Made by a program: the position numbers and the translations under genes. A model generated the notes under the pieces. That model saw nothing but the letters and a program-made list of their open reading frames with translations. It searched no databases and was not told the origin of the DNA. Of a stretch of 64,000 bases of DNA, positions 1 to 19,100 are shown piece after piece. Source of the DNA: a virus (taxonomy: Duplodnaviria > Caudoviricetes). The DNA is taken from positions 17,853 to 81,852 of IMG/VR virus record IMGVR_UViG_3300026255_000001. The stretch is one strand, 5' to 3'. The first letter of the stretch is position 1, and every line of letters begins with the position of its first letter.

Positions 1-1104
1 CTCGGCGTGACCAGCGGCATCACCTGGGGCTCCGAGGGTATGCGGCGCAACCGCGAGGGCGCCGAGAGCGTGCTGGGGGACGACGCAGCCACGGTCCAGG
101 GGGTCGGGCAGGCCGTGGTCGGCACGGCGCTGTCATTTGTGCCTGGTGTTGGCTGGGCCTTGGCGGCCGGGCTCAGCGCCCTTAATCAGGCCAACCGGGC
201 GGCGGCCGGCACGCAGAGCTGGGGGGATGCGTTCATCACTGCCGGGATTTCCACGGTAGCCAGCCGCATCGGGGCCGGGCTGACGGCTGGCGTAGAGCCC
301 GGCATTGCGACGGCGTTCACGAACGCGGCGGTGCAGGGCACCTCCACCACGCTGCAGACCGGCTTGACCGGCAGAGACCCCGTGACCGGTGAACGGCTCG
401 GATGGGACGACGCGCTCGAGCGGGGCGGAATATCCGCCCTGTCGTCCTTTGCCACGGCCGGATTTCAGAATGCCATGGGTACCCAGGGCAACTGGGCCGG
501 TGCGTTCCAGGGCGCGGCGGTCGGCGGCGGCACGTCCTACCTGTCGGGGCTGGCGCTCGGGCTGGAGGACGACGCTTTGGAGCAAAGTGTGTATAGCGGC
601 GCGGCGTCTGGCGCCCTCACCGGGTATGACGCGGCTGGGAAGCGGCACGATTTTTACAACAAGCCGAAGTACGACAGCATCTACGGAGGAGTCGACATTC
701 TTGGCCGGCCTATCGCGAGAGAGCAGCTCACCGGCTACGACGCGGCGCTCGAGCGCGGGATGGCCTTTGGGCCCGCGCAACCAGGGGATTTGCCAATTCC
801 ACAGGACGCCAGCGCCTGGGACCGCACCGTCCGCTGGGGCACGAACTGGAACGTCGGGTTCAAGCCGACCCCGGAGATGTCCGCCATCGGCCGCGGCGCG
901 CAGAACGCCTGGGATTTCGTGACGCCTTGGGAGACGCGGCACGAGACGGGCCAGCGCGTGCGCGGATGGTCCGATTCGCCTTGGGGAGGCCCGCTGAACT
1001 GGGTGGAGAACACGCATCGGCTGTCCGCTTTTTTGCGCAATCCGACGCAGTTTGGTGTTGCCGGACAGGCAGAAGGAGTTCGTCCGCCACGATTGGTTCA
1101 TTAA
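1..1104 (+). CDS. Gly/Ala-rich internal virion (ejection-type) protein, 5'-partial
   Basis: Frame is open to the left edge (GTG at 7). Gly/Ala/Thr-rich amphipathic segments; first of a co-oriented run leading to the giant virion protein. Function inferred from context. Confidence 0.6.
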   Translation, partial: LGVTSGITWGSEGMRRNREGAESVLGDDAATVQGVGQAVVGTALSFVPGVGWALAAGLSALNQANRAAAGTQSWGDAFITAGISTVASRIGAGLTAGVEPGIATAFTNAAVQGTSTTLQTGLTGRDPVTGERLGWDDALERGGISALSSFATAGFQNAMGTQGNWAGAFQGAAVGGGTSYLSGLALGLEDDALEQSVYSGAASGALTGYDAAGKRHDFYNKPKYDSIYGGVDILGRPIAREQLTGYDAALERGMAFGPAQPGDLPIPQDASAWDRTVRWGTNWNVGFKPTPEMSAIGRGAQNAWDFVTPWETRHETGQRVRGWSDSPWGGPLNWVENTHRLSAFLRNPTQFGVAGQAEGVRPPRLVH

Positions 1105-1137: not shown

Positions 1138-3711
1138 ATGTCAACTTTCATCGGAAACATTGGGGTACCGCGAATCGACCGCCACATCAGGTATGACTAC
1201 AATGACGTGGGTGCGGCGCTGGACAGTTTCTTTGGCTCCAGCAACCCGGTCCCGGCGGCGGTTTCACAGCAGAACTTCATTCCTCCGCCCGCGCCGACCG
1301 TCGGGCCGTTGGTTAGCAATGCGCCGCCCCCTGTTGCCGCCACGCCCCAGCAATTCCAGCAGCCGTTCATAGCTCCCGCCGTCAGCCAGCCTTGGAGCCA
1401 GCCCGTTCTGCAGTTCCAGCAGCCGTTCATAGCTCCCGCCGTCAGCCAGTCTTGGAGCCAGCCCGTTCTGCCGGCGCAGTTCTTCTTGCAGACGCCGGTC
1501 CCGGGCTACGCGACGCCGCAGCAAATGGGCATGGACATCTTCGGCGAGGCGCCGCAGGCTCCGGCCGAGCAAGCCCCCGCCCCGACGATCGCCGAGACGG
1601 CGTCGTTCGTGCCTTCGGCGGAGATCATGGCGCCGGAGGCCCCTATCACCGAGCGGTTCGTGGCCCGCGGCCTGCCTACGGCGGGCGAGCTAGTTTCCCC
1701 GCCCCCCAGTTTTGACGGCGGTACGGCCAATGTCCTTGGGCGGGTGGAGGCCGACGCCTACGCCCCTCCTCCTTGGTGGCCGGAAGGCGCCGTCGTGAGG
1801 CGTGACCCGATGGCACCGGGAGGTTTTAGCGTAACGGTACCTGGACCAAAGTCGGCTTCGATGAAGGTTTACCCGGAAGATTCTCCGGCGCTGACCGACG
1901 TCAGAATAAGCCCTCCGACTGAGCCCGACCCGCTCGCGGAGGCGCTTCCTCCGCCGGCGGATGCCCTCGCGGCAACGGTAGGGACGGCGAGTGCGGACGA
2001 CGCCATGCGAGCCGTACCATCCACGCCTGGCGGGCTTTCCGCCGCCCCCAAGGATGACCCAGCGGTCCGGCGTGTTGAGGAGCTGTATATCGCTGGGGTA
2101 GAAGCTGCCGGCACTCCTTTGTCAGACGAGGCGAAGAAAGATTTGTACACGCACATCGTCGATCGTGTTAAGGTGGACGAGGTGTATAAGCCGCGGCTGG
2201 CCGTGGTTGAGGGGCGACTAGGCGGGTTGGATAAAGAAGACCCGTCGTACGATGTGCTGGCCAAAGAGAAAGAGCGGCTTGAAACCAGAATCGGTGCCAT
2301 TGAGGAAAAATATAAAACCACTGTTGCACCAGTCGACAAAGAAGCCGAGCACGCGGCTGAGTTTCTGACTGATGGAGAAAAATACATTGCGGCCAGGACC
2401 GGCACGCTGACCGGTTCCGATGCGACGCAGTGGAATTATTACCAGGACAAAGTCAAGGACTTGGAGTTGTGGCGGGAGGCCGATGCTTGGTCGAGAAGCA
2501 AAGACGCTAGTGAAGGCAAAGACCCGCCGACAAGGCTGGCATCGCAATTCCGATATGGGCAGCTTATAAAGCAGCCGGAGCTCCCGGCTACAGAAACCAC
2601 GGTTGTTGGGCGCATAGAAATCGAGCGGCGTATTTTCGAGAGCCTTCATGAAACCACGCGCGCAGATTTACTGCGCCGCCCCGGGGATATGAATCTCGAC
2701 TCGTTGGTTCAGGCGCGACAGGAACAGCAGCTCGAGCCGTTCAAACTGGCTTTTGAAGGGGCATCCGACCCAGTCATGTCGGGAGGGCTATCCGACGTGC
2801 TTGACGACGCTGGGTTGGAATCGCTGCAAAACGCCGACGGTCTGTTGCGTGAAGGGAAGTTTGCTGCGGCTGACCGGGCATATCAGCAAACTGGCCGGTT
2901 GGCGATCCGTTCGCAATTCGAGCGGGCCGCCTCCGGCAAGGGCGTAATCGTTGGCGGCGACGGCTCGCTGACTGTGGACCCGAGGATGCTCAGCGAGGCG
3001 CAGCAGCTGCAAGCCACCCTCAGAGAGATGTTTGACGCGGCCCCGGAAGGATCTCCTGCGCGAGTTGCCATCCGGTCCCAGATGCTGAGACTGGACCGCG
3101 GCATCGACGGAGCCACCGGCAAGTCGGAGCACATCACCGGCCTGAAACTGTCCGATCTTTACGCCGGGTTGCGGGCGGACATGGACGTCAACACCCCCAA
3201 GGGCGCCACAAAAGAATATGCCGGGCACCTTGGAGAAGTCGGAGAAACCATAAACGACAGGACCCAGCTCACCATCAAGGGGGCGATCGCTACGTTTGAG
3301 CGGTCGCAGGGCCTGGAGCGGGATAAGCAGACTTTGCAGGAGACCATCGACGGTGCGATCAATCTCGGCAGGCGGGAGTTCAAGAACTACGTGAATTCCA
3401 CTCGGCACGGCTCGGAGTTCGGTCGCGAGGGGGTGCTCCGCAAAATACGAAATGACGGAAGCGTCGAATGGAACACGGCCAACATGCTGGCGGTCGGCAA
3501 TCTCGCCCTGCTGGCGCTGGCGCCGCTCGAACGCGCCTACTGGCAGCGCCGGCAGGAGGAGCGCGAGGACGAGCGCTACGACGAAGACTGGGAGCGCCAG
3601 AAAGAAGCCTGGGCGATCCAGAACGGGTACCGGCTCCAGCAGATTGGCGCCGCCGGAAAAGCGTCCCGCGGCGGGGGCAGCGTGGCGGCAGTCCGTCCGG
3701 CAAGATTCTAG
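1138..3711 (+). CDS. Putative internal virion/ejection protein, 857 aa, with Pro/Gln-rich N-terminus and helical C-terminus
   Basis: ATG with AAGGA RBS. N-terminal 20 aa shared with the next gene. C-terminal hydrophobic helix followed by a charged coiled coil. Confidence 0.65.
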   Translation: MSTFIGNIGVPRIDRHIRYDYNDVGAALDSFFGSSNPVPAAVSQQNFIPPPAPTVGPLVSNAPPPVAATPQQFQQPFIAPAVSQPWSQPVLQFQQPFIAPAVSQSWSQPVLPAQFFLQTPVPGYATPQQMGMDIFGEAPQAPAEQAPAPTIAETASFVPSAEIMAPEAPITERFVARGLPTAGELVSPPPSFDGGTANVLGRVEADAYAPPPWWPEGAVVRRDPMAPGGFSVTVPGPKSASMKVYPEDSPALTDVRISPPTEPDPLAEALPPPADALAATVGTASADDAMRAVPSTPGGLSAAPKDDPAVRRVEELYIAGVEAAGTPLSDEAKKDLYTHIVDRVKVDEVYKPRLAVVEGRLGGLDKEDPSYDVLAKEKERLETRIGAIEEKYKTTVAPVDKEAEHAAEFLTDGEKYIAARTGTLTGSDATQWNYYQDKVKDLELWREADAWSRSKDASEGKDPPTRLASQFRYGQLIKQPELPATETTVVGRIEIERRIFESLHETTRADLLRRPGDMNLDSLVQARQEQQLEPFKLAFEGASDPVMSGGLSDVLDDAGLESLQNADGLLREGKFAAADRAYQQTGRLAIRSQFERAASGKGVIVGGDGSLTVDPRMLSEAQQLQATLREMFDAAPEGSPARVAIRSQMLRLDRGIDGATGKSEHITGLKLSDLYAGLRADMDVNTPKGATKEYAGHLGEVGETINDRTQLTIKGAIATFERSQGLERDKQTLQETIDGAINLGRREFKNYVNSTRHGSEFGREGVLRKIRNDGSVEWNTANMLAVGNLALLALAPLERAYWQRRQEEREDERYDEDWERQKEAWAIQNGYRLQQIGAAGKASRGGGSVAAVRPARF
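1351..1470 (+). repeat. 60-bp tandem duplication encoding QFQQPFIAPAVSQ(P/S)WSQPVL x2
   Basis: 1351-1410 vs 1411-1470, two mismatches. Confidence 0.95.
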
Positions 3712-3723
3712 GGAGATACGACC

Positions 3724-4770
3724 ATGGCAACTTTCATCGGAAACATCGGAGTCCCGCGGATCGACCGGCACATCAAGTTCGACTCTTCCAGAGACAAGCC
3801 GGCCTCGACCCCGTCAGCATTAGATTTGTGGCGTGACGCGAATATCAACCGGGCGGAAGGGCTGAAGGTCACCAACCGCGAAACCGGCGTACAAAGCACA
3901 GTCCCTCATTTTGACTCCTCCCTCCGGACCGGCGGCACAAGCTCCGGCAGATCGTCCGGCGGATCGTCCGGCGGATCGTCCGGCGGATCGTCCGGCGGCA
4001 GCTCCGGCGACACCGGCAACGCAAGGGTAACGACCGACCTCGACATGTCGATCCCCGACATCCCGGAATACGAGCCGCTCGACCTGTCCGGCATCGAGTA
4101 CGACCCCGCGTCCCCGGACCTGCAGGATCTGTCGAAGGCCGACACCGCGCTCGGCGCCATGGAGGACATGATCGGCGGCCTCCGGGAGAAGAACAAAGAC
4201 TGGATGGCCGGCAAGGTGTCCGGGGATACGGCGGATCAGTTGAGGTCGCAGGCGGCCCTTAGTGCCCGCATGGGCGGGGCCGGCGTCGACTCCCAGATGT
4301 CCCGCAACCTGCAGGCTCGCGACTTCGGGCTGACCTCGATGCAGATCCAGGAAGCCGGCATGCAGCGCGAGAGCCAGCTGACTCAGCTGCAGCAGAGCCT
4401 GGCCGGGATTCGCGAACAGCGGATGCAGTTTATGACCCAGCTGCGGGAGCAGCAGTCCCAGTTCGGTTCGGCCTTCGAGATGGACAAGGCCAAGGTCGGC
4501 GAGGCGTCCCGGCAGTTCGGGGCCAACCTCCAGGACCAGATGTACCGGACCCAGCTCGCCCACAAGGAGCTGATGCTCAAGCAGGAGGCGTTCAACGCCG
4601 AGCAGAACATGCGCCTGGTCGAGCTGATCACCCAGTCTACCCTCGGGTTCTTGCAGTTGCAGGTCCAGGCGGCTGGGCAGGAGACGGACTTCGGCGGCGG
4701 CGTGAAGACGTATGAAACCCTGCAGAAACAGCTCGAAGAGCTTTGGTCCCGCAGCAATCCGAAGACGTAG
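3724..4770 (+). CDS. Putative internal virion/ejection (pilot-type) protein, 348 aa, Gln-rich coiled coil
   Basis: GGGAG RBS, shared N-terminal tag, GGSS linker and Q/M-rich helical body. Confidence 0.65.
   Translation: MATFIGNIGVPRIDRHIKFDSSRDKPASTPSALDLWRDANINRAEGLKVTNRETGVQSTVPHFDSSLRTGGTSSGRSSGGSSGGSSGGSSGGSSGDTGNARVTTDLDMSIPDIPEYEPLDLSGIEYDPASPDLQDLSKADTALGAMEDMIGGLREKNKDWMAGKVSGDTADQLRSQAALSARMGGAGVDSQMSRNLQARDFGLTSMQIQEAGMQRESQLTQLQQSLAGIREQRMQFMTQLREQQSQFGSAFEMDKAKVGEASRQFGANLQDQMYRTQLAHKELMLKQEAFNAEQNMRLVELITQSTLGFLQLQVQAAGQETDFGGGVKTYETLQKQLEELWSRSNPKT
3946..4005 (+). repeat. 12-bp tandem repeat (GGCGGATCGTCC) encoding a GGSS linker
   Basis: Three exact units at 3958-3993 plus two degenerate flanking units. 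Confidence 0.95.
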
Positions 4771-4779
4771 GAGACTACC

Positions 4780-7134
4780 ATGAGCGACCCATTCAACAGC
4801 TTGATGACGACCGGCGCCGCGAACGCGGTTGGCGGCATGGCCAATCTTTTCGCCGGATCGCAGGCGATGCAACTGCAGGCGAACGCCGGCGCGCAGAACG
4901 CGAACGCCGGGCTCATGCAGTATATGATGTACCAGGACGCCCTGTCCGCCAAGAACCGCGAACAGTCCAGGCAGTTCGACATCCAGACGCGCGAGCGGTC
5001 CGATCTGATCGCGGCGAAGCGCGAGGAGTCCGCGTTTGCGCGGCTCAATGCGACGCTGGATTCGCAGCTCAAGCGCGCCGAGATTGAATCCCGCGACCGC
5101 CAGCTGGCATTCGAGAACACACTCAAGCTGCAGCAGAACGACCTGCAGATGAAGATTCAGACCATGCAGGTCGAGCGGATGGAGGGCGTCATGGACGCCG
5201 AGGCGCTGCGCGGCGAGCTGGCCAGCATATCCGTAGACGCGGCCGAACTCAACGGGCTTGATTTGGCCGACCGGTTGGTGAGCGTGAAGAACAAGCACAA
5301 ACGCGGCATGGCCCACCTGGAGAGTTCAGGAACCCCGATCGGGCAGACCATCGCCGGTATGGTCACGGCGGCCAAGCAGATGAAGCTCGATATTCCCGTG
5401 CTCGACGACGATCTGCTCGGCGACTCGTTTACTGTCGAGGCCGCGCAGAAAGCGATTGAAGACATGGATCTTGCGGCGGGCAGGGTGAAGGCGGACGACA
5501 AGCAGGTGCTCGGGTACGTCAAAAACCAAATGCTGAGCAAGTACGCCGACGACGACGCCATGTCTGCGCGGATTGGCGATTATATCGCGGCGCACGGGAT
5601 CAAAGGGTCCAAGTTGGCGACCCTGGATGCGGCCGGCAAGACGCGACTCGGGATGCTGGCCGCCCTGGAGGACATGGAGGCCAAGGAGGGCGCTCTCCAG
5701 CCGCACTACGCCAAGATCAAGGAGCAGCTGTCCGATCCAGTCGGCGCCGCGCACTTCGATACGCTGTATCGAGCGGGCGTGCTCGAGCCCATCAAGGACA
5801 AGGCCACGCTGTCCAAGCTGCAGATGCTCCACCAGCACAATTTCCAGACGCAGGTCGCCAACATGCAGGCGGCCGCGGACCGCGGGTTCAACTATTTCGG
5901 GCCTGAGCTGAAAGAAGCCCGGGAGCGCGCCGAGGAACAGTTCCAGGAAGCGCGGATGGAGATCATGGCCGGCGGGCGCCCCGACGCCGTGTGGGCGTTG
6001 TCCGGGGGCGTCGACTCGTTCGACTCCTTCCGCGAAGGCGTGCTGACCGACATCAAGAAGACCGACGAGTTCAAGCGCGTGACCGGCGGGGACATCATGG
6101 ACTTTGCGCTTGAGGTGTCCGGTTTGGCCGGCGCCGGGCGTACGGTGGCCAACGTATTCACTGGACGCTGGGACAAGCTGTCGGTTGGCGATGCCGTTGA
6201 CCTGGCGCTAACCTCCGCTGCTTTGTTTTCTGGCGGCGCAACTTTGTGGGGCCGGGGGTTACTCGGCGCCTCTAAGGGGGTGAAAGCGACGATGCTCGGG
6301 GCCAAGGTGGCTAAAGGCGGAGGGGTTCTTGGTGGGCTTGGCAGAGGGGCTATCTATGTCCCAAAAGCTATTGTAAGGAAGACGGGTCTCGGTACTCGCG
6401 GGATGCAGTTGTGGGCCGCCAAGGGATCTACCGGAGCCGATGCTGTTCGGCGGGCCTCTAATGCTATCGCACCGGCTAAACGGTGGTTGGCTAAACAGAC
6501 AGTTGCGGCAGGGTCCGCTGGGATGCAAGTTCCAGGGAGAGTGTCCGCTGCGTTGTCGAATTTGGCTGGTAAAGAGGCGGCTCTCTCCGCCGCTAGGACG
6601 CTTCGCGGCGGAGAAGTTGCGGCGAACATCGCTGCCGCCGGTTGGGCTGGCGGCAGAGCCGCGGATATGGCTATTGGACGGGCGAGCGAAGGCTACGAGC
6701 GCGGGCAGTCAGGCCCGCGACTTAGCTTCGGCCAGTTCCACGAAGCCGCGGACGACTTAGAGGAGAAGTTCCAGACGCTGCGGATGATGGGCGACAAGAT
6801 GCGCGGCAAGCAGCTCGAGGCCATGACGACTGAGTTCGTCAGCTCCTTCGAGAATTTCAAGCGCGTGGCGGGCAACTACTACAGCGACGGGCGGGTTCCC
6901 TTCCAAATCGAGGAGCGCTACCTGCAGCTCAGTCGGCTGCTCCCGCCTTTGGTGGCGAACAAGATCAACCGCCGCATCCGCGACGGGGAGTCCGGAGTCC
7001 AGCCTCAGAGCTTCTCGTCGTTCGAGGAGATGATGGCGCTGCCTGCGCGCGGCGGAGGCATGTCCATGCCTGTCGCTGCGCCTGCCGGCGGAGCCAGCGG
7101 ACTCCCAGGTTTCGAAGCCGACGAGACTCCTTGA
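4780..7134 (+). CDS. Putative internal virion/ejection protein, 784 aa, with a Gly/Ala-rich membrane-active segment
   Basis: GGAG RBS, N-terminal coiled coil, hydrophobic Gly/Ala stretch (about 6100-6700), directly upstream of the giant protein. Confidence 0.65.
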   Translation: MSDPFNSLMTTGAANAVGGMANLFAGSQAMQLQANAGAQNANAGLMQYMMYQDALSAKNREQSRQFDIQTRERSDLIAAKREESAFARLNATLDSQLKRAEIESRDRQLAFENTLKLQQNDLQMKIQTMQVERMEGVMDAEALRGELASISVDAAELNGLDLADRLVSVKNKHKRGMAHLESSGTPIGQTIAGMVTAAKQMKLDIPVLDDDLLGDSFTVEAAQKAIEDMDLAAGRVKADDKQVLGYVKNQMLSKYADDDAMSARIGDYIAAHGIKGSKLATLDAAGKTRLGMLAALEDMEAKEGALQPHYAKIKEQLSDPVGAAHFDTLYRAGVLEPIKDKATLSKLQMLHQHNFQTQVANMQAAADRGFNYFGPELKEARERAEEQFQEARMEIMAGGRPDAVWALSGGVDSFDSFREGVLTDIKKTDEFKRVTGGDIMDFALEVSGLAGAGRTVANVFTGRWDKLSVGDAVDLALTSAALFSGGATLWGRGLLGASKGVKATMLGAKVAKGGGVLGGLGRGAIYVPKAIVRKTGLGTRGMQLWAAKGSTGADAVRRASNAIAPAKRWLAKQTVAAGSAGMQVPGRVSAALSNLAGKEAALSAARTLRGGEVAANIAAAGWAGGRAADMAIGRASEGYERGQSGPRLSFGQFHEAADDLEEKFQTLRMMGDKMRGKQLEAMTTEFVSSFENFKRVAGNYYSDGRVPFQIEERYLQLSRLLPPLVANKINRRIRDGESGVQPQSFSSFEEMMALPARGGGMSMPVAAPAGGASGLPGFEADETP

Positions 7135-7189: not shown

Positions 7190-10100
7190 ATGAACGAGTT
7201 CAGGTTTTTGGCGCCCGACGGGCGGTACGGCACGGTGAGCGCCGAGAACTTCTCGAGCGTTTATTCCGCCGGCGGCATCCCCGTGGAGGCCATGCCCGAA
7301 GTCGACGTCATGTCCCCCGACGGCATGCTGTCCACGATCCGCCACGAGAAGGCGTCCGAACTCATCAAGACCCAGGGGTACAAGCTCGCCACGACCCCGC
7401 GCCCCCTGCGCTTCGCGTCCCCCGACGGCCGCACCGGCACGGTCAAGGTCGGCCTGGAATCCGCGGCTCTGAGGCAGGGCGGGACTTTGCTTTTGAAGGA
7501 GCTTGACGTCAACAAGCCGTTGAAGCCGGACCTCCCCCGCGACCCGAAGATCGCCTCCGAGCCCCCGGAGTCCGTGCTCGGCAACTGGTTCGGGCCGGTG
7601 CCGAAGGATCCGACGACCCTCAAGGGTTGGGATTCCTACCAGGCGCTGGTTACCAAGAACAAGAAGGGGAAGGCCGGATTCTGGGAGGGCATTACCCCGA
7701 ACATGACGAACGTGCCATTCCTCGGCACCGCGCTCGCCGCGGTCGACGCCGGCAAGGCGGCCTTGACCGCGCAGCGGCTCAAGGAGGGCAAGCCGACTTC
7801 CGACCAGGATGTTCTGGACCTCAACATGTTCATTGCCAAGCAGGAGCGCGAATCCAACGCCACGATGCTCGGCAAGGCCGGCAACGTCGTGATCGACATG
7901 ACGACTTTCATGGCCGAAATCGCGGGGTCGATCAAGGGATTTCTGGTGCCGTTGAAGCCCTGGTTGGCCGCCAAGGCTTCGGCCAAGGCCGGCGGCGCCG
8001 CCGTAGGCAAGCTGTCCGTCGGATTGTCCAGAAAGATTTTGAAGGAGAGCGGCGAAGAGTGGGCCAAGAACCTCGTGGCCAAGAAGGTTGCCGCCGAGGC
8101 CGGCGAAGAGGTCGCCGAATATCTGGCGAAGCACGGGGGCCGGCGCGTCGCTGCGAAACTGCTCGGGCAGCTCCCCGAGATCGGCGTCGCCACGATCGCC
8201 CCGACAATCGGCCAGATCGTCCCCCAGTTGGCAGCCACGAAGATGTCTGGGCAGGACGCCGGAACCTACCGTGGCAACGTCGACAAGACCTTCGCTGCGC
8301 TCATGGGCGAGGACATGGAGAATTCCGCGGCCATCTGGCGCTCAGTCGCCGACACCACGATCGAGAACTGGTCGGAGGCCATGGGTGAAACCATAATGGC
8401 AGGCATGTCCAAGCTCCCCATCGTCGGCGGCCTCGGGCAGGCCATCCGGCGCAACGCCAATGCGTTCGTGGAGAAGCTCGGCAAGGCCGGAACGGCGGAA
8501 GGCTTCCAGGCCGTGGACCGCATAGCGGGCATGGCGGCGTTGTCCAGGTGGTTGTATGGGCGCGCCAAGAAGGGCGGCTCGTTTCGGATGATGATGGACG
8601 ACCTGCACGCCGTGGGTTACGATGGGGTCTTCGGCGAAATGATGGAGGAGCGCGCGGGCGACTGGATGCGTGGCCTGTTCGGGCTCGAAGGCGATGCCGA
8701 CGAGAACGCCATCAAGCGCGCCTTCAAGAACTCCTTGCCCGACCCCGAGCAGCTCGGCGTCGAACTGATCGCCTTCTCCATCCCCGCGTTGGCGGTCGGC
8801 GGGTTGCGGTTCGCGGCGGTCTCGCCGAACATGGACGGGTATTTCCGTCGTCGTGAGGCGCTCGAGGGCCTGGCGACCCTGCACAAGAACCGCAAGCCGT
8901 GGGAAGACGGCAGCTTTACTTCCGGCGACGCCGAGGCCAGCAAACCCATCGTCAAGGACATCATTCGCGAGCATGAAGCCTATCAGCGCGACTCCACTGG
9001 CTGGATGAAGTATTTCAACTCTATGTTTGACGGGCTTCTGAGCATGAAGGTCGTCGACGGCGCCGTGGTTGTCAACCCGGACGTCAAGTACAAGAACACG
9101 ATGTCCATGATGATCGGTACCTACGGCGGCCTGGCGCGTACCGCGTACCTGGATAACCTCGGGCGCAAGCCGACCGAGGAAGACCTGGACAAGGCCCTGG
9201 ACATTGGCGCCGAGCACGCTATGCGCCAGATGGCCCGCCAGGGCGGTTTCATTTGGCTGTACGACAGCACGCTCAGGACGACCGATGGCGTGCCTTCCGC
9301 CGAGGCAGGCGTCACGACGGAGCAGGAGGCGCTCAAGTATCTGTCCAAGGCGCAGCTGCAGGCGCTGCGCGACGCCGACTTGCTGACCATCGACGACTTC
9401 GGCAAGATTTTCATGCTGGATCCACGCAGCTACGACACGGACCAGCACGAGCTCTTGGCCCATGCGTTCGAGCTCGGCACGGCGCGTCAGGTTCTGGAGG
9501 ACAAGAAGTCGAGCGAGAAAGATCGCGAGGAGGCCAGGAAGCAAGAGGCGGAGGCCCTGGAGAAGATCGGCAAGATCGCGCCGGGCGTCGGGCCGCTGAG
9601 CGTCGCGGGGGCCCACAGGCGCGCCGCCGAAGCCGTCGCCCGCCTGATGACGCTGACCCCCGAGGAGGCCCGGGACGTCACGCTGCAACAAAACATCCGC
9701 TTCGAAAGCGCCCTGGACCTTGATGAGCCGGCGGACGAGGCCGCTCTGGCCGAAGCCGAGGCCAAGGGAGAATATGCCCTGCTGTTTGAACTGTACCGCA
9801 AGCACCAGCGTTTCAATGCCTATGTGAATCTGGAGCTGGACGCCGATCCGCTCCCCGGGTCCCTGAACGAGTTGCTGCTGCGCGCCACGGTGTCCCCGGA
9901 TTCCATGTCTCCCGAGGAGAAGGTCCGCGCAGCTTCGTTCCTAACCGGCTACCCCGACGCCACTCGCCTCGACGAGGCGACGTCCGTCGCGCGCCGGGTC
10001 CACAAGATGGTACAGGAGGGCGAAATCGCTTTCCGGGGAGACAGGATCGTGCGCTCCGGCGACGGGCAGAAGTTCGTCGTGCTCTCGCCCTTCCGGGACG

Positions 10101-13100
10101 AGAAGACCAGGAAGTCGATGTACCGAGTGGCCCCGCTGTCGGAGACCGGCACGCCGCTGGAGTCGGAGGCCACGTTCATTTCCGCCGAGGAGCTCAAGGC
10201 CAAGTACCAAAACGAGACGAAGACCGGCGTGTCAATCTCCAAGTTCTCCCGGGTCCAGGGCTCGCTGGAATCCATGGTGCCGTTTCTCCACAAGGCGGGT
10301 TACCTCGGCTCCTGGGTGCGGAGCAACCGGCGAGACGGCGAGTCGGTCGAGCAGACGCTCGCCCGCATGACGAGCCGGGACCTGACCGGCCTTGGGCTGG
10401 TGAAAGCGATGAAGGGCGCCTCCGGGAAAGAGTTTTTCTACTACGACGTCGGCGCCCGTTCGCTGTTTTATGGGGCCCTGGGCAAGCGCACCCGCGGCGT
10501 GGCCTACAATCCCATGCAGATGGCGGACATGGCCGGGGCGCATTTCTCGGAGGACTTCACCGAGGTGCCGATGCTGCAGCTGGCGGCGGATGCGCTCGGG
10601 CAGAACCAGACGGCGGACCGGCTGCGCGCGGCGCTGCCCGTCCTGGCCGCCGCGATTTCCAGGGCCCAGAAGGAAGCCGAGCACGTCCTTGTGCAGGCGG
10701 CCAAGAACTCCAAGACGTCCTCTGAGCGCGCCAAGGCGGTCGAGGACCTGGCCACCCTGCGCAAGCTGCCGAGCGTGGACTCGTCCGACGTGCTCAACGT
10801 CGTCGAGGCTATGAGCAAAACCGTGAGGCACTATGTCCACGGGTACAAGGATTTCCCCCGCCTGCGGCAGCTGGTTCTCGGGGACGCCGTGGAGGCGCTG
10901 TACGACAATTCCAGCCTATCGCATGACCTCCCCGCCATCCGCGCAGAGCTTGAGACGGTGGCGTCGAAGGAATACTGGGACGCACTGCGCTACGACGGGG
11001 CGATTGAGTCGGCCGACGAGGGTCCGGCGGACGGGGAAGCCGGAAAGACCGGCGACAAACCCCCGCCCCTGCCCCCTCCGGCCGACGGCGGCGCGGAAGA
11101 GGGTGCGCCCCCGGCCGAAGACGGGCCGGCCGGCCCTTCCGTTCCCGCTGACTCGTTGCTCGACGACCTGACCGCGCAGGAAGTAAACGACGCCTTGTTC
11201 GGAGAGTCCGCCGCCGTGCCACGGCCCGACCCGGCCCCCGGGGACGCTCCGGAATCCATCAAACTCTCCGGTGATGCGGACGACGACGCCCGCGCGCTCG
11301 ACCCTGATCTCGTCAAGAACCCCGACGCCCTGGCGGACCGCCTCGTGCGCTTCCGTCCCGGCATGGTGCGGCGCATCGGCGCGCTGAAGGCGATCGGCAA
11401 GGACCTGATGGACAGCGGCTTGCTGTCCCTGCAGGCGGCGAACGACATGCTGCTGGGCTACATGGCCTCCTCGCTGCGGCTGTCCAAACCCGAAGCGTTC
11501 GACGTGCTGCTCGCGCTGCGCTGGAATCCCGGCGCCAAGGCGCTCGCCGAAACCGCTCCCACGGAAGCCGAGATGGAGGCCGAGCTGACGGGCTCCCTCG
11601 CGGAAGCCCTCGGGCTGTCCAGTGACGCCGAAGTGCCGATGTCGTCGGACAAGCTAGCGGGGTCGGGCAACGCGGACATGATGGACTCCAAGCTGAAGGA
11701 GGTGACGGACGTCGTGCGCGTCGTCCTCGACGCCGCCATGGGCTACGCCCCCGTCGCCGAGATCGGCCGGGCGATCCGCAAGTCGGCGCCTGGCGGCAGG
11801 CCGCTTGGGACCCGCAACCTGCCCGCCTGGCTCATGTCCAAGGAGGCGTTCGGCGAATGGGCCGCCGAGCGCAAGGCCAACATGCGCCGGTACTCGGACA
11901 ACTTCGCCGAGCTGCGTCTCTCCCGGCCGCTGGACGCTGCCGAGATCATGTTCAACAGCGTGGTCGCCAGCCTGCCGTGGGAGCACGCGCTGCAGATCTA
12001 CAAGGCCGCCCAGAACACCTTCCCCCGCGAAGTCCGCGAGGTCAGGCCCAATGACGGCTACGGCACATACTTCGAGGCGTTGCTGCCTCCGGACGAGGCG
12101 GGCGTCCAGCACGACGCGGTCCGGGGAGCGACTGTCGCGGAGGTCGAGCAGAACGTCGCGGCGCTGATCAAGCTGGGGATGTACCGGGGCCAGGTCTCCG
12201 CCGAGGAGCTGGCCGAGCTGGTTCACGAAACCGGCAACGGGTCAACGATGGCGACCCTGAACGACGCGGCTCCCCGCATGGCGGCGGAGCAGGCCAGCCA
12301 GCTGCGCCGGCGGCTGAGGCCCGAAGAGTATTTCAGCGACGCCAATGCGGAGCTCCGCGCCGCCGTTGAGCGCGTGGCCTCCATGATCGACTCCAAGCGC
12401 GGGACTTTCGGCCGAGCCGGGGCTTTCTACAAGGACCAAGGCGGAAACACGGTAAGCCGGTTCGGGTACCTGTTGAACGAAGGCGCCGACGCCAGCAGTA
12501 AATGGCATAGTCCGTGGAAGAAGCAGTTGCTGGAGGACGTGCTCGAGGTTGTCTCCCGTCTGCTGACTGGCTCCAATAGTCCGGCGCTCGTCGCGCAACT
12601 GAAGAAGGACCTGGTCCTGAACGAAGGCAAAGCGGTCCGGAAGTCCCTGCAGAACCTCTGGGAACAGCTGATCGAGCCGCTGGCGGCCCTGGAGCGCGAG
12701 CGCACGTCGTCCTCTGGCGCGGAGGCCCAACGGCAGACCCTGGCGGCGAGGGGGCTCAACGCGCTGGTGGAGGGCACGGCCGAAAACCCCGGAGTCTTCT
12801 ACAAGGCGTTCGGACTGGCCTACGGCGGCAACGAGCTGGAGGCGTTCGCCTACATGCGCGACCGCAAGGACTTCTTCCAGACCAATGACAAGTACCTGTC
12901 CAAGCTGCTCGGCCAGTTCGCCGTCCGCAACGTCGTGACGCCCGTTGGGCGCGCCACGGGGGGCAAGGCGTTCTCGGGGTACCGGGCGAGGAGCCCGCAA
13001 GCCGAGGCCGCCGAGCGCCTGGCGGACCGCCGCGGCGACCTGCGCCCGGCCGTGCTGGTATCCGAGGCGGCGGGGATGGATTCCATCGAAGGCTCCGAGA

Positions 13101-16100
13101 TGTCTTCGGCCCAGATGTACGATGCGCTCCGTGGAGTCGCGCGGGGAGCGTTCGCGCGGTTGCGCAAGGGCGAGCCCGGCGAAGTGTTCCTGCCGATGAC
13201 GCTGTCCGGCGACAAGCTGGAGCTCAATGGCGTCGTGTGGACGATCAGCGGCGAGACCCGGATTCTCGGGGGCAAGCGGTTCGAGGACTACGGGGAGAAG
13301 GATTTCGACGCGTTCTACAACGACATCTACTTCGGGGACAAAGACAATATCGGTGCCCACGAGCAGTTCACGATCGACTTGATCCATGAGATTGCCCCCG
13401 GCATCCTGGATCCCGGCGGGCAGTTCAGCCTGTATCGCAAGGCGAAGGACGGGAAGCTGGAGAGCAAGAGCCCGGCGGAGATCGGCAAGATCATCCAGGA
13501 CGTACTGAAGAGGTTCTCGCAGATCGGGACCCCGATCGTCGACGGCATCTTCGGGCCTCCGGGCTACCTGCAGACCGCCGAGGACGGCGCGGTCGAATAC
13601 GTCGTCGCGCTCAAGGCGGACGGCAACCCGTACAAGGGCCCCGGCGACGGGTTGCTCTGGGTCATGCCCTGGCTCCGCGACGCCGCGAAGAAGACCTACG
13701 GCGGCGCCGAGAAGCAGGCATCCTACAAGCTGGGCAACTGGGGGCCCACGGACCGCGGCGTCCTGAGCCAGACGAAGGGCGCCGTCGCCATTGACCCCAA
13801 CCGGTTCGAGCGCCTCGACCAGTCCGAGCCGGGCGCCCTGACGCCGGCCGAGCTCGAGGACGTGCTGTCCGACGAGTCTTTCCGCAGGCAGCTGCCGGAA
13901 GCCGTGTTTCTCGCCACCGGCAACGCCCAGAAGATGGGCCCCGGCAGGTTCGATCGTGTCGTGGAAGTCGTCCGCGGCAGCAAGACCTACAAGTTTGGCG
14001 TCTTCCGCGCCGCCCCGCTGGGCATCACTTCCACCATGCCCACGGACACCACGCTCCAGGAGCGCTGGGTCGGCATGCAGCCGGTCGCCGGCGGGGCCGG
14101 AATCCTGAACGTCCCCGGGGGCACCCTGGATGCCCGCGCCGACTTCTACCGCGTGTTCATGGACGAACTGTATTCCGGGGCGGAGTCCCGCATCCGCAAA
14201 GCGCTGGAACGCCCCGACGCGGTCCTGTTCGAGGGGGACAACCGGCGGCCGATGCTGAACGCCCTGGCCAAGGAGGGCGGGTGGCTTGGCGGCTCGCTGG
14301 CCGCCATGCAGACCCTGTTTGCCAAGCTGCGCGGGGCGGTCAACGCCGCCAAGAAGAAAGGCCACGCCAAGCTGGTGTCGCCGATCCAGAGCACCGGAGC
14401 CGCCCGCGAGGACGGAACCCTGGCGCCCGCCACGGATGGTCCGCTGGAATACGACGACTCCGCCCGGCTGCATCCGTCCGGGGGCCAGATCGTGCGTGGC
14501 ATGGCCAAGCCCTCCTCGTTGTCCGACCACCATCGGCTGGCGAACGGCGGATTGACGATGCCCGGCATGGGGCTCGGGCTGGAGGACATAGGCGAGGCCG
14601 ACCTGAAGCGCGCGGCGAAGCATTACGAGAAGCTGTTCGGGCGCCGGAACATCCCGGCGAACGAAAAGGAGCTCGGAGCCGCTGCCCACGAGCTCATGAC
14701 CGAGCTCGTCGGAATGGCTCCCGGGACCTCCGATTTCAACAAGACCCGCGCGATCCTCCGGGCCCTGCTGGCGCCGGTGCGATCGCGGTCGGAGTTCATC
14801 CCGCTGGATGGCAGCACGGTGTTCGGGCGCTCGCTGGAGGATGCCAAGAAGGTTGTCGCCCACCTGCAGGCGAAACACCACCTGTTGTACGATCTCGCCA
14901 GGATCAAATTGGAAGGCGGCAAGGGCCAGTTCGACGTCGAATACGAGCAGGGTCGCCTGTCTGGATACACCGGAGAAGGCGTGAACCTCGACGACTTCGT
15001 CGTCCACTCCTCCGAGGACGGGCAAACCGTAATTGGGTTCCGCATCCCCGGCATCCCGCTGCTGGTCCACCGTTCTCCGGCGCTCGGCCATCTGCAGTCC
15101 ATGCGCGTGATCCGGCTGACGGAGCTCACGAAGGACGCGGCGGCGATCTTCTACCACCAGGACACCCTGACGAAGGAAGGCGCGGACGAAGATGGCGACC
15201 AGTCCCATGTGTTCCCCCTGCCACCGATGTCCCTGCTCGCCCTGCACAAGAGCTTCGAGTTCCTGCGCGACAACGAATTCGAAGTCGGGGCCAGCGCCAG
15301 GCCGGATAGGTTCAGCGACGCCTATCCGAAGGATCTCCGGGATTCCTGGCTCGCCTCGCTCGTGCCCGAGAATCTCGAGCGGATCACGGACCCCCGCGTC
15401 ATGGCCCTCTCTCGGGACGCCAACCTGGCCGGATCCACGGCCATCGGCACCGCGGCGTCCATGCTGACGGCGGCGGAACTGATGTTCGCAGACATGGTGC
15501 TGGACAAGGATGTCCCAGGGCTGCGCGACACCTCTGCCGCAGACCCGTACGTCGCCGTCCGGTTCGCCGTCCTCCACGACATGGTCAACCGCATCGTGGA
15601 CGCGGGCAAGGTCCCACACATGATGAAGGGGATGATGCTCTACCAGCAGTTTGTCCCGGTATTCGTGGCAGCCGCCGTCGGCAGTGAAGTCCCGTTCGTC
15701 GAAGGGCTGGAAGGACAGGAGCTCTACGATCACGTCCACAAGCACACCGTGCAGGAAGTGACGGAGTGGCTCACGGACTCCGAGCGGGGACGGCGCCTTG
15801 CGGACAACGTCCTGGTTGGCGGGATGACTCTCGGCAAGGCGTTCCGGGCCACGTACGGCAAGAAGGCGAAAGAAATGCAGCCCAAGATCGCCGCCCTGCT
15901 GGCGCTGAGCGACGACATGACGACGCTCTCGACGGTTGTTCGCGCGATCCACAAGTTCAAGCCGACGAGTTTCGGCGACATGGTTTCCCTGCTCGAGAAG
16001 ATCGACTCCGTCCTGGACGGCCGGCTCAAGACCCTTCCCGCACCTACCAATCTCCCGGCCAACCGGCCGCTCCGCGTCGTGCTGGATTCCATCATCTCCC

Positions 16101-19100
16101 CGTTCCGCCCCGTCCTGGAGGAGCTGATCGGGAAGGTGAAGCAGGACGTTCTGGCCCATCCAACGGGGGCGCTGGAGGCCGCGCGGGCCGAGCAGCTGCT
16201 GGCAAACCCGCGCACGAAGGCCCTGGTCCGGAAGCAGCCCAGCGTGGACGGAGAATCGTTTGACTACGAGTGGACGGCGGCGGGGCTGTCAAAGCTCTGG
16301 GATCTGCAGCTCGACCTGCACCAGCGGCTGGCGACGGCCACGCTCAGGGCCAGGGAACTGGCCATGCACGCCGAATTCGCCGACATGCCGGTAGAGGAAC
16401 TCGCGGAAGAGGGGTTGCGCGGAACCGTGGACCCCGGGGCCGCGCCGCAGTATCATGTCTTCGACAGCGTCGTGCGGCAGCGCGCCGAGTTGCGGGCTAC
16501 GCCGGAGTACGCGGACAACGTCGTGCTGTCCGCTCTGGAGCTGTCGGTTACGATGCCGGAAGCCGTGGGCGAGGCGCAGGAACGGGCCGCCAAGCAAGCC
16601 CGTGCGCCAAGAATCCGTGTCGGAGTGACGGACAGCTTCAGCGTCGCCGAGGCCCGCCGCGACTGGGCCAAACTGCCCCCCGCGCTGCAGATCGACATCT
16701 TCGACCTGATCGCGCGATTCAACGGGCTGCACCGCTCGGAGAGCCGCCTGTACGATCTCGTTCCCCCGGCGTTTATGAAAGAGGTCTTCGCTCTCGAGCG
16801 CCAGATCGCCGCCGGCTTCCGGGACGGTTCGATCAACATCGACGCCGTGCGCCCGCTCAAGAGCGGAATAACGCTGCGGGGCATGCTCGACTTCGCCCGC
16901 GAGTCCTATCTGACAGGGGCCGCCGGGGCCACGATCGAGGTGCCGGCAGGCAAGCGCGTTCCTTATGACGGCGCGGGCAGCTACCTGCGCTTCGCGCCGT
17001 TCGTCTCGGGCTGGGAAGCCGCGCCGTATTACGGTGCGCCGGCTATCCCCGAGCTGCTCGGCGAAAACGCCGGCGAGGTCGGCCTTCCGGCTCCGGCGCC
17101 CATCCGCCCCGCTCCGGCGCCGGCGCCTGCCGCGCCTAAGTCGGTCAAGGACGTTGCCGTCAAGGCCCAGTCTCCAAGCAAGTACCGCACGAAGGAGCTG
17201 GCCAAGGCGGCTGCCTCAAACAAGGTGGCGGCACTGACCGATGCCGCGATCACGGATGAGTCCTACGCCAAGCGCCTTGGCCTCGCTGCGCAGGCCGCGG
17301 GCATCCTGGTGTCCGACGCGTCCCAGGTCAAAGAAGGCGACGTCGTCTACGTCTCCATGCCGGGCCGCGGGCGAGGAGCCAGCGTCGCGCAGATCAACGG
17401 CTTCATCGACTCCGTTGTCGGGATGGTGAACGCCGGTGCAGCCGTCGTCACGGACAACGGAGAGAACGCCAAGCGCATGCACAACATCGGCGCGGAAGGC
17501 GTCCTGCGCGAGCGTCTCCTGAAGGAGGGGTTTCAGGAGACCGAGAACAAGAAGTTTGGCTACAGCCTTTGGCGCAAGGGCGCCGTTACTCTGGAGACGC
17601 CATCCCTCCTCGGCGAGGCGAAGCCGCGGCAGCTGGAGTTGCAGCTGGGGCAGTCGATCGCCCCCGACAGCGACGCCGGCGCGCCCTACGACCTGAACGA
17701 GCGCGAAGCCGCCGACCTGCGCAAGGCGTACGGACTCGTCCAGGGAGAGATCGTCCGGGCGGAGGCCATCATGGAAGCCGCGATCGCGCGGGCCCACGAA
17801 GCCAAGATGGAGGGCTCCGCCGAGGCGCTCAAGGCCCTGCGTGAAATGACGGCTTCCGGGCTCGGCCTCGTCGTGTCCTCCGTCGTGCCGTACGCCGCGG
17901 ACGAGAACCTCGGAACCAAGAAGTCGATCTGGGGCGGGTACGACCCGGACAACAACCTGGTCACCCTGTCCCCGAAGCTGGTGCGCCACCTGGAAAACCC
18001 GGCCGGCGGCCTGAACTGGTTCGACAAGACCCTGTTCCACGAGCTCGCCCACGCCGGCATGTACCATCTCGTCGGGAAGAACGACCTGCGCTTCCGGCTC
18101 CTGCTGGACCAGGCGCGCAACGAGGCGGCGCGGCGCGGGATCGACAAGAAAGAATGGGACAACGACTACTACGGGCTGACGAACACGCAGGAGTTCGCGG
18201 CAGAGGCGCTGTCCAATCCCGCCTTCCGCTCGTTCCTGGCGTCCATTCCGGCCGTCGGCATCCTGACCGCGCCGGAGAAGTCCGCCAGCCTCTGGGACGC
18301 CGTGCGCCGCCAGATCGCCCGCGTCCTGGCGTCCTTCGCGAAGCGGTTCCCCGGCATCAAGCACTCCCTGCTGGAGCAGGCGTTCGACGAGATCATGCAG
18401 TGGGACGCGGAGGACGCCTTGTCGGCCCGCGCGGACGCGTATGCCAGGCGCGCAGCCGAAAGCCTGCCGCCGGAGGAAAGCCCGACGGAGTTCGAGAGCT
18501 GGGAAGCGGCGGCCGCGGACGCCGCCGCCCGGTTCAAGCTGGAGTGGAACGGGTCCTTCGAGGCGTCCAAGAACTGGAACGTGGTCGGATCGGAGAAGGA
18601 CCCGCTGGCCTACAATGCGGTCAACGCGGACAACTCGCTGCTGGTGGAGGTCTCCGGAACGAGAGGCGGGGCGAAGTGGACCGCGTACGCCGGACCCGGA
18701 TACTCCGTCGCGCAGTCGGAGAAGCCGGAGGGGCGCAAATGGCCCGAAAGCGTAGATCTGTCTTATGCCCGCAAAGCGAGGCAGGGCGAGCTGGACTTCG
18801 GGCAGTCGATCGCGACACCGGAGTTGAATCCGGTAGTTCGCGGGCTCGAGTCGGCGTTCAACAAGCTCGGCTTCTCGTTCAAGGACGCGCGGGATTCGGA
18901 CGTGTACGGCGCGCTTCAAGTTGCGAGCCGCGTAATAGCGGACCCGAAGAACGAGGTCGCCCATATCTCGCAGGCCGCGACGGCGCTGTCGTACCTGGCG
19001 TTCCCCAGAATCGTCGGGGTCGAGAGGGACGTCAGATCGCGCGCGGATCTGGAAAACATCCTCCGCTCCGAGCTGTTCGACAGGTATGAAGAGGCTGGAG

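What the first reader, a model, noticed from the sequence alone, without database searches (positions are those of the whole stretch)
1138..3783. Two otherwise unrelated ejection-type proteins share a 20-aa N-terminal tag
Seen: MSTFIGNIGVPRIDRHIRYD (1138-97) vs MATFIGNIGVPRIDRHIKFD (3724-83), 17/20 identical. Five codons differ synonymously, which points to selection on the peptide. Similarity stops right after, and both tags are followed by low-complexity linkers. Known: T4 internal proteins use a short N-terminal capsid-targeting sequence. Inference: a new packaging or ejection-order signal.
Basis: partly seen in the sequence, partly recalled or inferred. Interest (0 to 1): 0.75.

Follow-up and report, generated by a model that had tools for sequence, protein, structure and literature searches.

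The report
Shuffled N-terminal peptide on ejection-type proteins
Two neighbouring, otherwise unrelated internal-virion-type proteins of an uncultured 82-kb phage do start with the same 20 residues, but the second copy is a rare recombined-in module that nearly all relatives lack, so it is at best an optional docking peptide, not a required packaging signal.

Summary
Window 1138-1197 and 3724-3783 encode 20-residue N-termini that are 17/20 identical. These are the only two copies in the 81,852-bp genome, and nothing else in the two proteins is alike.

Relatives change the reading. The peptide is the native N-terminus of the 857-aa family: 6 of 9 homologues carry it. In a seventh lineage it appears to be split off as a 33-38-aa mini-ORF.

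On the 348-aa protein it is part of a roughly 28-codon insertion. That insertion is absent from 38 protein homologues and 14 metagenome loci, some 97-99% identical in the region they share. The copy matches the split-lineage version 20/20 but the resident 857-aa gene only 17/20. It was therefore imported by recombination into a hypervariable 5' zone where at least six unrelated N-modules alternate.

dN/dS is 0.11, so the peptide has been under selection. That selection may have acted mainly while it headed the 857-aa family.

Both proteins lie in a run of five cysteine-free proteins (8,934 aa), which fits ejected proteins.

Most likely it is an optional N-terminal docking peptide of unproven function. 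An obligatory T4-like capsid-targeting signal is unlikely. The scan has noted other shared N-terminal tags in other phages.

The parts
1138..1197 (+). Tag copy A: the first 20 codons of the 857-aa protein (MSTFIGNIGVPRIDRHIRYD)
   Evidence: Translation. The same 20 residues head 5 of 9 homologues and a sixth differs at one residue, including two whose middle part is unrelated.
1138..3711 (+). 857-aa cysteine-free protein ('tagA'). Residues 1-280 are disordered and P/Q-rich, 290-830 are helical, and the C-terminal end ...GGGSVAAVRPARF is conserved.
   Evidence: No Pfam, PHROG, PDB or fold match.
1350..1471 (+). 60-nt tandem repeat, two copies, encoding QFQQPFIAPAVSQxWSQPVL. All nine homologues have one copy.
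3475..3531 (+). Most hydrophobic segment of the 857-aa protein (residues 780-798, TANMLAVGNLALLALAPLE). It is a possible membrane-active segment.
   Evidence: Hydropathy scan. The segment is conserved in the homologues.
3655..3723 (+). Conserved junction: the last codons of the 857-aa gene (...SVAAVRPARF), the stop, the GGGAG ribosome-binding site and the ACGACN spacer. It is nearly identical in relatives whose flanks differ.
   Evidence: DNA alignment A3.
3724..3783 (+). Tag copy B: the first 20 codons of the 348-aa protein (MATFIGNIGVPRIDRHIKFD). It is 20/20 identical to mini-ORFs P0050 and P0051.
3784..3816 (+). 11-residue S/P/T-rich linker (SSRDKPASTPS). It is unique to this genome and has no source elsewhere in the genome or the fetched loci.
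3817..3936 (+). N-module 'M1' (ALDLWRDANINRAEG...RTGG). In the closest relatives this is the true N-terminus of the 348-aa protein family.
3929..4009 (+). Ser-Gly repeat linker (12-nt unit, about 5 copies). The copy number varies among relatives.
4045..4770 (+). Conserved, Gln-rich, long-helix C-terminal domain of the 348-aa protein ('tagB'). It is the only part shared by all 38 homologues.
1..1104 (+). C-terminal part of the upstream 642-aa protein, the first member of the cysteine-free run
4780..7134 (+). 784-aa cysteine-free protein with its own conserved N-terminus (MSDPFNSL...) and no tag
7190..26101 (+). 6,303-aa cysteine-free giant protein with no tag
   Evidence: Earlier scan notes call it an ejected polyvalent protein with an RNA polymerase; I did not re-test that.

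Best explanation
What is shown. The 20-residue peptide is the native, conserved N-terminus of the 857-aa protein family. Its second copy, on the 348-aa protein, is part of an insertion of about 28 codons placed directly after the start codon. The insertion lies in a hypervariable 5' zone where relatives carry at least six unrelated short N-modules. In some relatives these modules are split off as free-standing mini-ORFs.

The copy on the 348-aa protein is identical to the tag version of a diverged lineage of the 857-aa family. In that lineage the first ~28 residues appear to be split off as a 33-38-aa mini-ORF. The copy is not identical to the resident 857-aa gene. It therefore arrived by recombination between phage lineages, not by duplication in place, and it is rare.

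What is inferred. The peptide is a discrete island under purifying selection and always sits at the extreme N-terminus. It recurs with three different downstream junctions, at residues 20, about 23 and about 30. I therefore take it to be a short functional motif. The most likely role is a docking peptide through which the disordered N-terminal arm of a cysteine-free internal or ejected protein binds a shared virion partner such as scaffold, portal or core. In the 857-aa family this would be its normal role. On the 348-aa protein it would be an optional extra that changes where or how much of the protein is loaded. It is not a prerequisite for packaging.

My confidence in the origin part is about 0.85, and in the docking function about 0.35.
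For: Origin. The tag heads 6 of 9 homologues of the 857-aa protein, including P0048 and P0049, which are only about 41% identical overall. It is absent from all 38 homologues of the 348-aa protein and from 14 syntenic metagenome loci. In DNA alignment A3 the junction ...CCGGCAAGATTCTAGGGAGATACGACNATG is the same in the window and in L002, L003, L007 and L011. About 86 nt follow the ATG only in the window.

An exhaustive phmmer search of 1.84 billion representatives finds the tag in only two further clusters, both in the B version. P0050-P0054 are 33-38 aa long and occur on 5 contigs. Joined to residues 4 onward of P0046, they align colinearly with residues 1-70 of the 857-aa protein. P0054 and P0046 each occur on a single ENA contig of 3,359 nt. 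P0051 (52 aa) ends in the same 12 residues as the mini-ORF at L007:763-978, which lies between the two genes.

Function. dN/dS is 0.11 with P = 0.0045. Within the 857-aa family the tag is a conserved island: residues 21-47 diverge between lineages and residues 48-70 are again about 100% identical. Residues 1-130 of the 348-aa protein and 1-280 of the 857-aa protein are predicted disordered, followed by long helices. Five consecutive proteins have 0 Cys in 8,934 residues where 96 are expected, and 47 homologues have 0 Cys in 18,381 residues. From the literature, the N-terminal parts of P22 ejection proteins mediate incorporation into procapsids, and 10 residues of T4 IPIII suffice for targeting (PMC8402733; PMC5694885).
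Against: There is no direct evidence that any of these proteins is in the virion. No Pfam, PHROG, PDB-sequence or fold match exists for them or for the putative portal and capsid proteins. The 348-aa family evidently functions without the tag, and two lineages of the 857-aa family (P0043, P0047) have unrelated N-termini. The tag may therefore do nothing on the 348-aa protein.

The selection signal may have built up entirely while both versions headed proteins of the 857-aa family. Only two of the five cysteine-free proteins carry the tag. No binding partner is identified.
Confidence: 0.45

Rival explanations
1. Neutral passenger. The tag matters, if at all, only at the head of the 857-aa family. 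Its presence on the 348-aa protein is a by-product of frequent illegitimate or short-homology recombination in a disordered, indel-tolerant 5' zone, and it does nothing there.
For: The tagged form is very rare: 0 of 38 homologues and 0 of 14 loci carry it, and no 191-609-aa protein among 5.8 billion shares its first 40 residues. The zone holds at least six unrelated modules, variable Ser-Gly repeats and split mini-ORFs. The N-terminal 130 residues are predicted disordered. The B version belongs to a diverged lineage of the 857-aa family, so the excess of synonymous differences needs no selection on the 348-aa protein.
Against: The B-version tag sits in the zone of the 348-aa gene in two different arrangements, the window and P0051. 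It is always intact, always at the extreme N-terminus, and its downstream junctions lie within a few residues of position 20. Random deletion end points would often cut into it.
Confidence: 0.33
2. One reading: an obligatory capsid-targeting or ejection-order signal that works like the T4 CTS and marks proteins for loading.
For: It is an N-terminal peptide of about 20 residues on two unrelated proteins of the virion module, under purifying selection. The T4 CTS precedent supports the idea (PMC5694885).
Against: Most orthologues of the 348-aa protein and 3 of 9 homologues of the 857-aa protein lack it. The three other cysteine-free neighbours, including the giant protein, lack it. The tag contains no Glu, so it has no T4-type L/I-x-E site, and no prohead protease family was detected. 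In one lineage the tag appears to be split from the body of the protein.
Confidence: 0.07
3. Host-directed leading-end motif. The N-terminal peptide is the first part of the ejected protein to leave the tail, and it inserts into or binds a component of the host envelope. This would resemble the short binding epitopes in the disordered translocation domains of colicins. The variable modules on the 348-aa protein would then reflect host diversity.
For: N-modules are hypervariable between flanks that are 97-99% identical, which is typical of host-facing parts. The regions are disordered and Gly/Ser-rich, and the proteins are cysteine-free. The tag has a hydrophobic Gly-containing half (TFIGNIGV) followed by a basic half; this is read directly from the sequence.
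Against: No sequence match to any solved protein, colicins included. The resemblance to colicin epitopes is recalled from memory only. The host is unknown, and nothing ties the tag to a host protein.
Confidence: 0.12
4. Selection at the mRNA level. The first 60 nt form a favourable, unstructured translation-initiation region that was copied because it raises expression.
For: Both 60-nt segments fold less stably than their dinucleotide shuffles (z about +2; 200 of 200 shuffles fold at least as well).
Against: Nine of 60 bases differ while the peptide is kept, and six of those changes are synonymous. The two segments share no hairpin and have different ribosome-binding sites. Weak folding at the 5' end is common in genes generally.
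Confidence: 0.03

Closest known systems
Capsid targeting sequence (CTS) of phage T4 internal proteins IPI-III and Alt (Mullaney & Black 1996, as cited in PMC5694885 and PMC8402733)
   Same: It is a short N-terminal peptide of 10-20 residues, found on otherwise unrelated proteins that travel inside the virion.
   Different: The T4 CTS ends in an L/I-x-E site that the prohead protease gp21 cuts, and it is found on all internal proteins. This tag has no Glu, no protease was detected, only 2 of 5 candidate internal proteins carry it, and most orthologues lack it.
Phage P22 ejection proteins: the 20-residue N-terminal leader of gp7 and the N-terminal assembly regions of gp7 and gp20 (PMC8402733)
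   Same: These are adjacent genes for internal proteins of a podovirus-like late module, whose N-terminal parts mediate incorporation. The gp7 leader is also 20 residues long, and its deletion leaves about 60% of the burst, so it is dispensable.
   Different: The gp7 leader is not shared with another P22 protein and is removed by the host protease OpdA. There is no sequence similarity, and processing could not be tested here.
Phage mosaicism: exchange of modules at conserved gene-boundary sequences (general knowledge of lambdoid and other tailed phages)
   Same: A conserved junction of gene end, ribosome-binding site and start flanks segments that are swapped between otherwise near-identical genomes.
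   Different: Here the exchange happens inside coding regions, at the scale of 20-40-residue N-modules. It sometimes splits the gene into a mini-ORF and a body.
Cargo-loading peptides of encapsulins (from my own knowledge)
   Same: A short terminal peptide shared by unrelated cargo proteins docks them to the inside of an HK97-fold shell.
   Different: Those peptides are C-terminal in most systems, they define the cargo, and they are conserved across orthologues. None of this is shown here.
Other shared N-terminal tags noted by this scan in other phage genomes (e1-5357742, e1-5353491, e1-3447660 and others)
   Same: The same type of observation: one short leader on unrelated late proteins.
   Different: Those notes report 4-11 tagged proteins per genome, and in some cases conservation in relatives. 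Here there are only two, and the second is a rare acquisition. The tag sequences are unrelated.

Membership tests
T4-type capsid targeting sequence (CTS) | A short leader of 10-20 residues at the extreme N-terminus of internal head proteins | tested here: met
   The 20 residues begin at Met1 of both ORFs. That the proteins are internal is inferred only from gene order and the absence of cysteine.
T4-type capsid targeting sequence (CTS) | Shared by the set of packaged internal proteins of the same phage | tested here: not met
   Only 2 of the 5 consecutive cysteine-free proteins carry it. There is no third copy in the 81,852-bp genome.
T4-type capsid targeting sequence (CTS) | Ends in the cleavage motif of a phage prohead protease (L/I-x-E in T4), and the phage encodes such a protease | tested here: not met
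   The tag has no Glu. No protease family was found in the 15 genes upstream of the 857-aa gene that were scanned, 10 with Pfam and PHROGs and 5 with Pfam only. Almost nothing in this phage matches any library, so the absence of a protease is weak evidence.
T4-type capsid targeting sequence (CTS) | Necessary and sufficient for encapsidation | not testable with these tools
   This needs virion proteomics and reporter fusions. Natural tag-less orthologues argue against necessity.
P22-type ejection (E) proteins | Genes in the late structural block, dispensable for capsid assembly, ejected to form a conduit across the cell envelope | tested here: inconclusive
   The position after the head and tail genes, long helices, disordered arms, a hydrophobic segment and zero cysteines all fit. 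There is no homology or fold match.
Mosaic module exchange at conserved boundaries | Near-identical flanks and a conserved junction, with unrelated sequence in between, across related genomes | tested here: met
   A3 shows the identical junction and an identical M1 module or C-domain, with a different or absent insert. At least six N-module types and three split forms were found.
   BLASTP finds nothing beyond residues 1-20. The two homologue families do not overlap.

The most novel reading that the evidence does not exclude
The 20-residue peptide is a portable, protease-independent address label. Whatever carries it at the extreme N-terminus would dock to a common site in the procapsid or the ejection apparatus. 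That would include the 857-aa protein, the 348-aa protein and free-standing mini-proteins of 33-52 aa. Recombination could then re-label cargo, and the phage could load small peptides for delivery into the host.
Probability: 0.2. Interest if true: 0.6.

Novelty: new member of a known kind. Interest (0 to 1): 0.3.

Why it matters
If the peptide is a docking label, it would be a second kind of N-terminal address for phage internal proteins, one that does not depend on a protease. It would come from a deeply divergent wastewater phage lineage in which no structural protein matches any library, and it could be used to load foreign cargo.

What the data show now is more modest, but still useful. 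The 5' ends of ejection-type genes can be hot spots where modules of 20-40 residues are swapped, duplicated and split off as mini-ORFs between phages that are almost identical. A tag shared by two genes in one genome can therefore be a recombination product and not a system-wide signal. Other shared-leader findings of this scan should be checked for this before they are read as targeting systems.

Tried and rejected
Searches that found nothing:
- blastn and tblastn against 50,697 phage records gave no match.
- IMG/VR held no tag pattern and no relatives of either protein, singly or as a profile.
- GTDB genome contigs held no tag pattern and no relatives.
- Relatives cannot be drawn for a virus record.
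The contigs of P0006, P0022, P0023, P0043, P0046 and P0050-P0054 therefore could not be read, and no dN/dS among tagged copies could be computed.
- Pfam and PHROGs gave nothing for the 642-, 857-, 348- and 784-aa proteins, and Pfam gave nothing for the 6,303-aa protein.
- PDB sequence searches of the putative portal, capsid protein, 605-aa protein, 784-aa protein, the tag region and an N-module gave only chance hits.
- The AlphaFold model of the 348-aa protein was too poor to search (pLDDT 45).
- The model of the 857-aa protein gave TM scores of about 0.1 against PDB and BFVD.
- The ESM Atlas returned only unnamed phage clusters.

Ideas rejected:
- A conserved RNA structure: the two segments fold differently, and both fold less well than shuffles.
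- The alternative N-termini of P0047 and P0043 as diverged tags: their alignment scores are no better than shuffles.
- Tag sharing as a general habit of this phage group: no N-terminal pair stands out in 10 loci of relatives, 8 of them distant.
- N-modules of relatives hidden elsewhere in this genome: only Ser-Gly noise was found.
- Another source for the 11-residue linker: none was found.
- An assembly artefact: the two copies differ at 9 of 60 bases and lie 2.6 kb apart, and the 857-aa protein is seen letter for letter on 8 contigs.
Full report
**The observation.** Each segment opens a well-supported ORF on the + strand, with a Shine-Dalgarno site in front. The ORFs are 857 aa (1138-3711, 'tagA' below) and 348 aa (3724-4770, 'tagB'). 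BLASTP of the two proteins aligns residues 1-20 (17/20, E = 1e-9) and nothing else below E = 1. A fuzzy six-frame search of the complete 81,852-bp genome finds only these two copies; the window is bases 17,853-81,852 of that genome. Among the first 40 residues of 63 predicted proteins this pair scores 97, against 41 for the next pair.

At DNA level 51 of 60 bases agree. The similarity starts about 6 nt before the ATG and stops at codon 20. Nei-Gojobori counting gives 6 synonymous and 3 replacement changes. That yields dS 0.66, dN 0.073, a ratio of 0.11 and Fisher P = 0.0045.

**The setting.** The genome has 63% G+C. Its + strand late block runs as follows:
- a large terminase interrupted by a LAGLIDADG intein;
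- eleven genes that match no library, of which the 863-, 412- and 556-aa products are a putative portal, a coiled-coil scaffold and a capsid protein (inferred from size and order);
- proteins of 642, 857, 348, 784 and 6,303 aa.

These last five have no cysteine in 8,934 residues. The rest of the proteome has 1.08% Cys, so 96 would be expected. All 47 homologues of tagA and tagB retrieved are also cysteine-free, over 18,381 residues.

AlphaFold predicts disorder for tagB residues 1-130 and tagA residues 1-280. Long helices follow, reaching pLDDT 70-90 in tagA 300-660. TagA also has a hydrophobic segment near its C-terminus. None of this matches Pfam, PHROGs, PDB sequences or known folds. 'Ejection-type' is therefore a reasonable inference from position, composition and architecture. 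It is not a demonstrated fact. Earlier notes of this scan read the giant protein as an ejected polyvalent protein with an RNA polymerase. I re-tested only its lack of cysteine.

**TagA relatives.** Nine homologues were found among 5.8 billion proteins. Five start with the same 20 residues and a sixth, P0049, differs at one. Two of the six, P0048 and P0049, have unrelated middle thirds. The family is a mosaic. About 130 N-terminal residues and about 60 C-terminal residues, ending ...GGGSVAAVRPARF, are conserved, and the middle varies. Three homologues start differently. For P0043 and P0047 the start is unrelated to the tag, with alignment scores no better than shuffles. The tag is thus the native head of this family, but it is not indispensable.

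**TagB relatives.** Thirty-eight homologues share only the C-terminal 250 or so residues. The N-terminal 100 or so residues fall into at least six unrelated module types. Examples are ALDLWRDANINRAEG..., GSYWIDVNGVKHEG...PWFDP......WGxGSWNxPNPVSG... and AVKPTTYPALRPDG.... A Ser-Gly repeat of variable length follows the module. None of the 38 carries the tag.

Fourteen syntenic metagenome contigs (L002-L015) also lack it in all six frames. The DNA alignment is decisive. The end of tagA, the stop, the GGGAG site and the spacer are nearly identical in the window and in L002, L003, L007 and L011. The sequence from ...TCAGCATTAGATTTGTGG onward is again shared. Between these two shared stretches the window alone has about 86 nt, encoding residues 2-30 (tag plus SSRDKPASTPS). 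On tagB the tag is therefore a lineage-specific insertion. A search restricted to its first 40 residues found no other 191-609-aa protein carrying it.

**The source of the second copy.** An exhaustive phmmer search of 1.84 billion representatives with tagA residues 1-30 returned only two clusters. Both carry the B version (A2, K18, F19), the same version as the window's tagB.

The first cluster, P0050-P0054, consists of mini-proteins of 33-38 aa on five contigs. They are built from the tag, then PFGDMAA..., then ...PARF-stop. Joined to residues 4 onward of P0046, they align without a gap to tagA residues 1-70. P0046 is the tagA homologue with a truncated start. P0054 and P0046 each occur on one ENA contig of 3,359 nt. 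The simplest reading is a diverged tagA lineage in which a copy of the junction (...PARF, stop, RBS, ATG-TCT-AC) splits off the first 28 or so residues.

The second cluster is P0051, a complete 52-aa ORF made of the tag plus a variant of the YWxDVNG module. It ends in the same 12 residues (GVSSLGGSFHTA) as the 71-aa mini-ORF at L007:763-978. That mini-ORF lies between tagA and a tagB that has yet another N-module. L008 and L009 show a third split form.

The window's tagB tag is thus 20/20 identical to the tag of a foreign tagA lineage and only 17/20 to its own neighbour. It was imported by recombination and did not arise by duplication in place. The dS of 0.66 then measures the divergence of two tagA lineages.

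**Consequences for function.** Several facts argue against an obligatory packaging or ejection-order signal:
- nearly all tagB orthologues lack the tag;
- two tagA lineages have unrelated starts, and a third has the tag split from the protein body;
- the three other cysteine-free proteins have their own N-termini;
- the tag has no Glu and therefore no T4-type cleavage site;
- no prohead protease was detected.

Other facts argue for some function. The peptide is a conserved island: residues 21-47 diverge between tagA lineages, while residues 1-20 and 48-70 do not. It evolved under purifying selection. It always keeps the extreme N-terminal position. It recurs intact with three different downstream junctions, at residues 20, about 23 and about 30.

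An RNA-level explanation is unlikely. The two segments share no structure and both fold less well than shuffles.

The literature gives the nearest working models. The N-terminal parts of P22 gp7 and gp20 mediate entry into procapsids. The 20-residue leader of gp7 itself is cleaved by the host protease OpdA and is nearly dispensable. Ten residues of T4 IPIII suffice to target foreign proteins (PMC8402733; PMC5694885).

My best account is an optional N-terminal docking peptide: native to tagA, and accessory or possibly neutral on tagB. The hypervariability of the tagB N-modules between flanks that are 97-99% identical fits a host-facing or dispensable region better than a site that must fit a conserved capsid partner. 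I therefore keep a host-directed role as a rival.

**Limits.** The positions of P0050-P0054 and P0051 are inferred from protein colinearity, shared ends and contig length. The exhaustive search sees one representative per 50% cluster, so tagged members of larger clusters are hidden. No virion data exist for this uncultured phage.

**Verdict.** The feature is real and statistically solid, and its origin is now largely explained. It is a mobile N-terminal module in a recombination hot spot at the boundary of two ejection-type genes. It is not a system-wide tag. This is a new example of known kinds of thing: N-terminal peptides on phage internal proteins, and mosaic module exchange. The function is unproven. 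The scan has recorded shared N-terminal leaders in several other phage genomes. This one is the weakest in number of tagged proteins and the clearest in evolutionary origin.

Noticed in passing
window 3724-4040; L007:763-978; L008:264-389; L009:2029-2154; alignment A2: The 5' 300 or so nt of the 348-aa gene is hypervariable. At least six unrelated N-modules of 20-40 residues alternate between genomes whose flanks are 97-99% identical. In three arrangements the module is split off as a mini-ORF of 41-71 aa by a short insert that carries a stop, a ribosome-binding site and a new start.
   Followed up: partly
window 1-26101 (genome 17028-43953): Five consecutive proteins (642, 857, 348, 784 and 6,303 aa) contain no cysteine in 8,934 residues, where 96 are expected from the rest of the proteome. 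All 47 retrieved homologues of the 857-aa and 348-aa proteins are also cysteine-free. This may be a compositional signature of proteins that pass through the tail into the periplasm.
   Followed up: partly
P0050, P0052, P0053, P0054 with P0046 (ENA contig of 3,359 nt, not readable here): A diverged lineage of the 857-aa family seems to be split after about residue 28 by a copy of the junction cassette (...PARF, stop, RBS, ATG-TCT-AC) that normally separates the 857-aa and 348-aa genes. The junction itself may be recombinogenic or mobile.
   Followed up: partly
window 1350-1471: A 60-nt tandem repeat (20 residues, QFQQPFIAPAVSQxWSQPVL) is present twice in this genome and once in all nine homologues.
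   Followed up: yes
L001:2166-5000 (genome coordinates, upstream of the window): The large terminase (944 aa) carries a LAGLIDADG homing-endonuclease domain at residues ~294-350, which suggests an intein.
   Followed up: no
L012:357-560; P0007, P0022, P0025, P0027, P0032, P0035: One N-module of the 348-aa family (...WGxGSWNxPNPVSG...) recalls, from memory only, the Trp/Gly/Ser/Asn-rich TolB-binding epitope of E-type colicins. A PDB sequence search gave no support. This is an untested lead.
   Followed up: partly
window 1138-3783: The two tag copies are direct repeats (51 of 60 nt identical, longest exact run 19 nt) that bracket the whole 857-aa gene. Recombination between them would delete that gene precisely and leave a tagged 348-aa gene.
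   Followed up: no
alignment A4 (P0048, P0049, P0047): The 857-aa family keeps its roughly 130 N-terminal and 60 C-terminal residues while the 500-600-residue middle is replaced by unrelated sequence in some members. The pattern is that of a cassette with conserved arms.
   Followed up: partly
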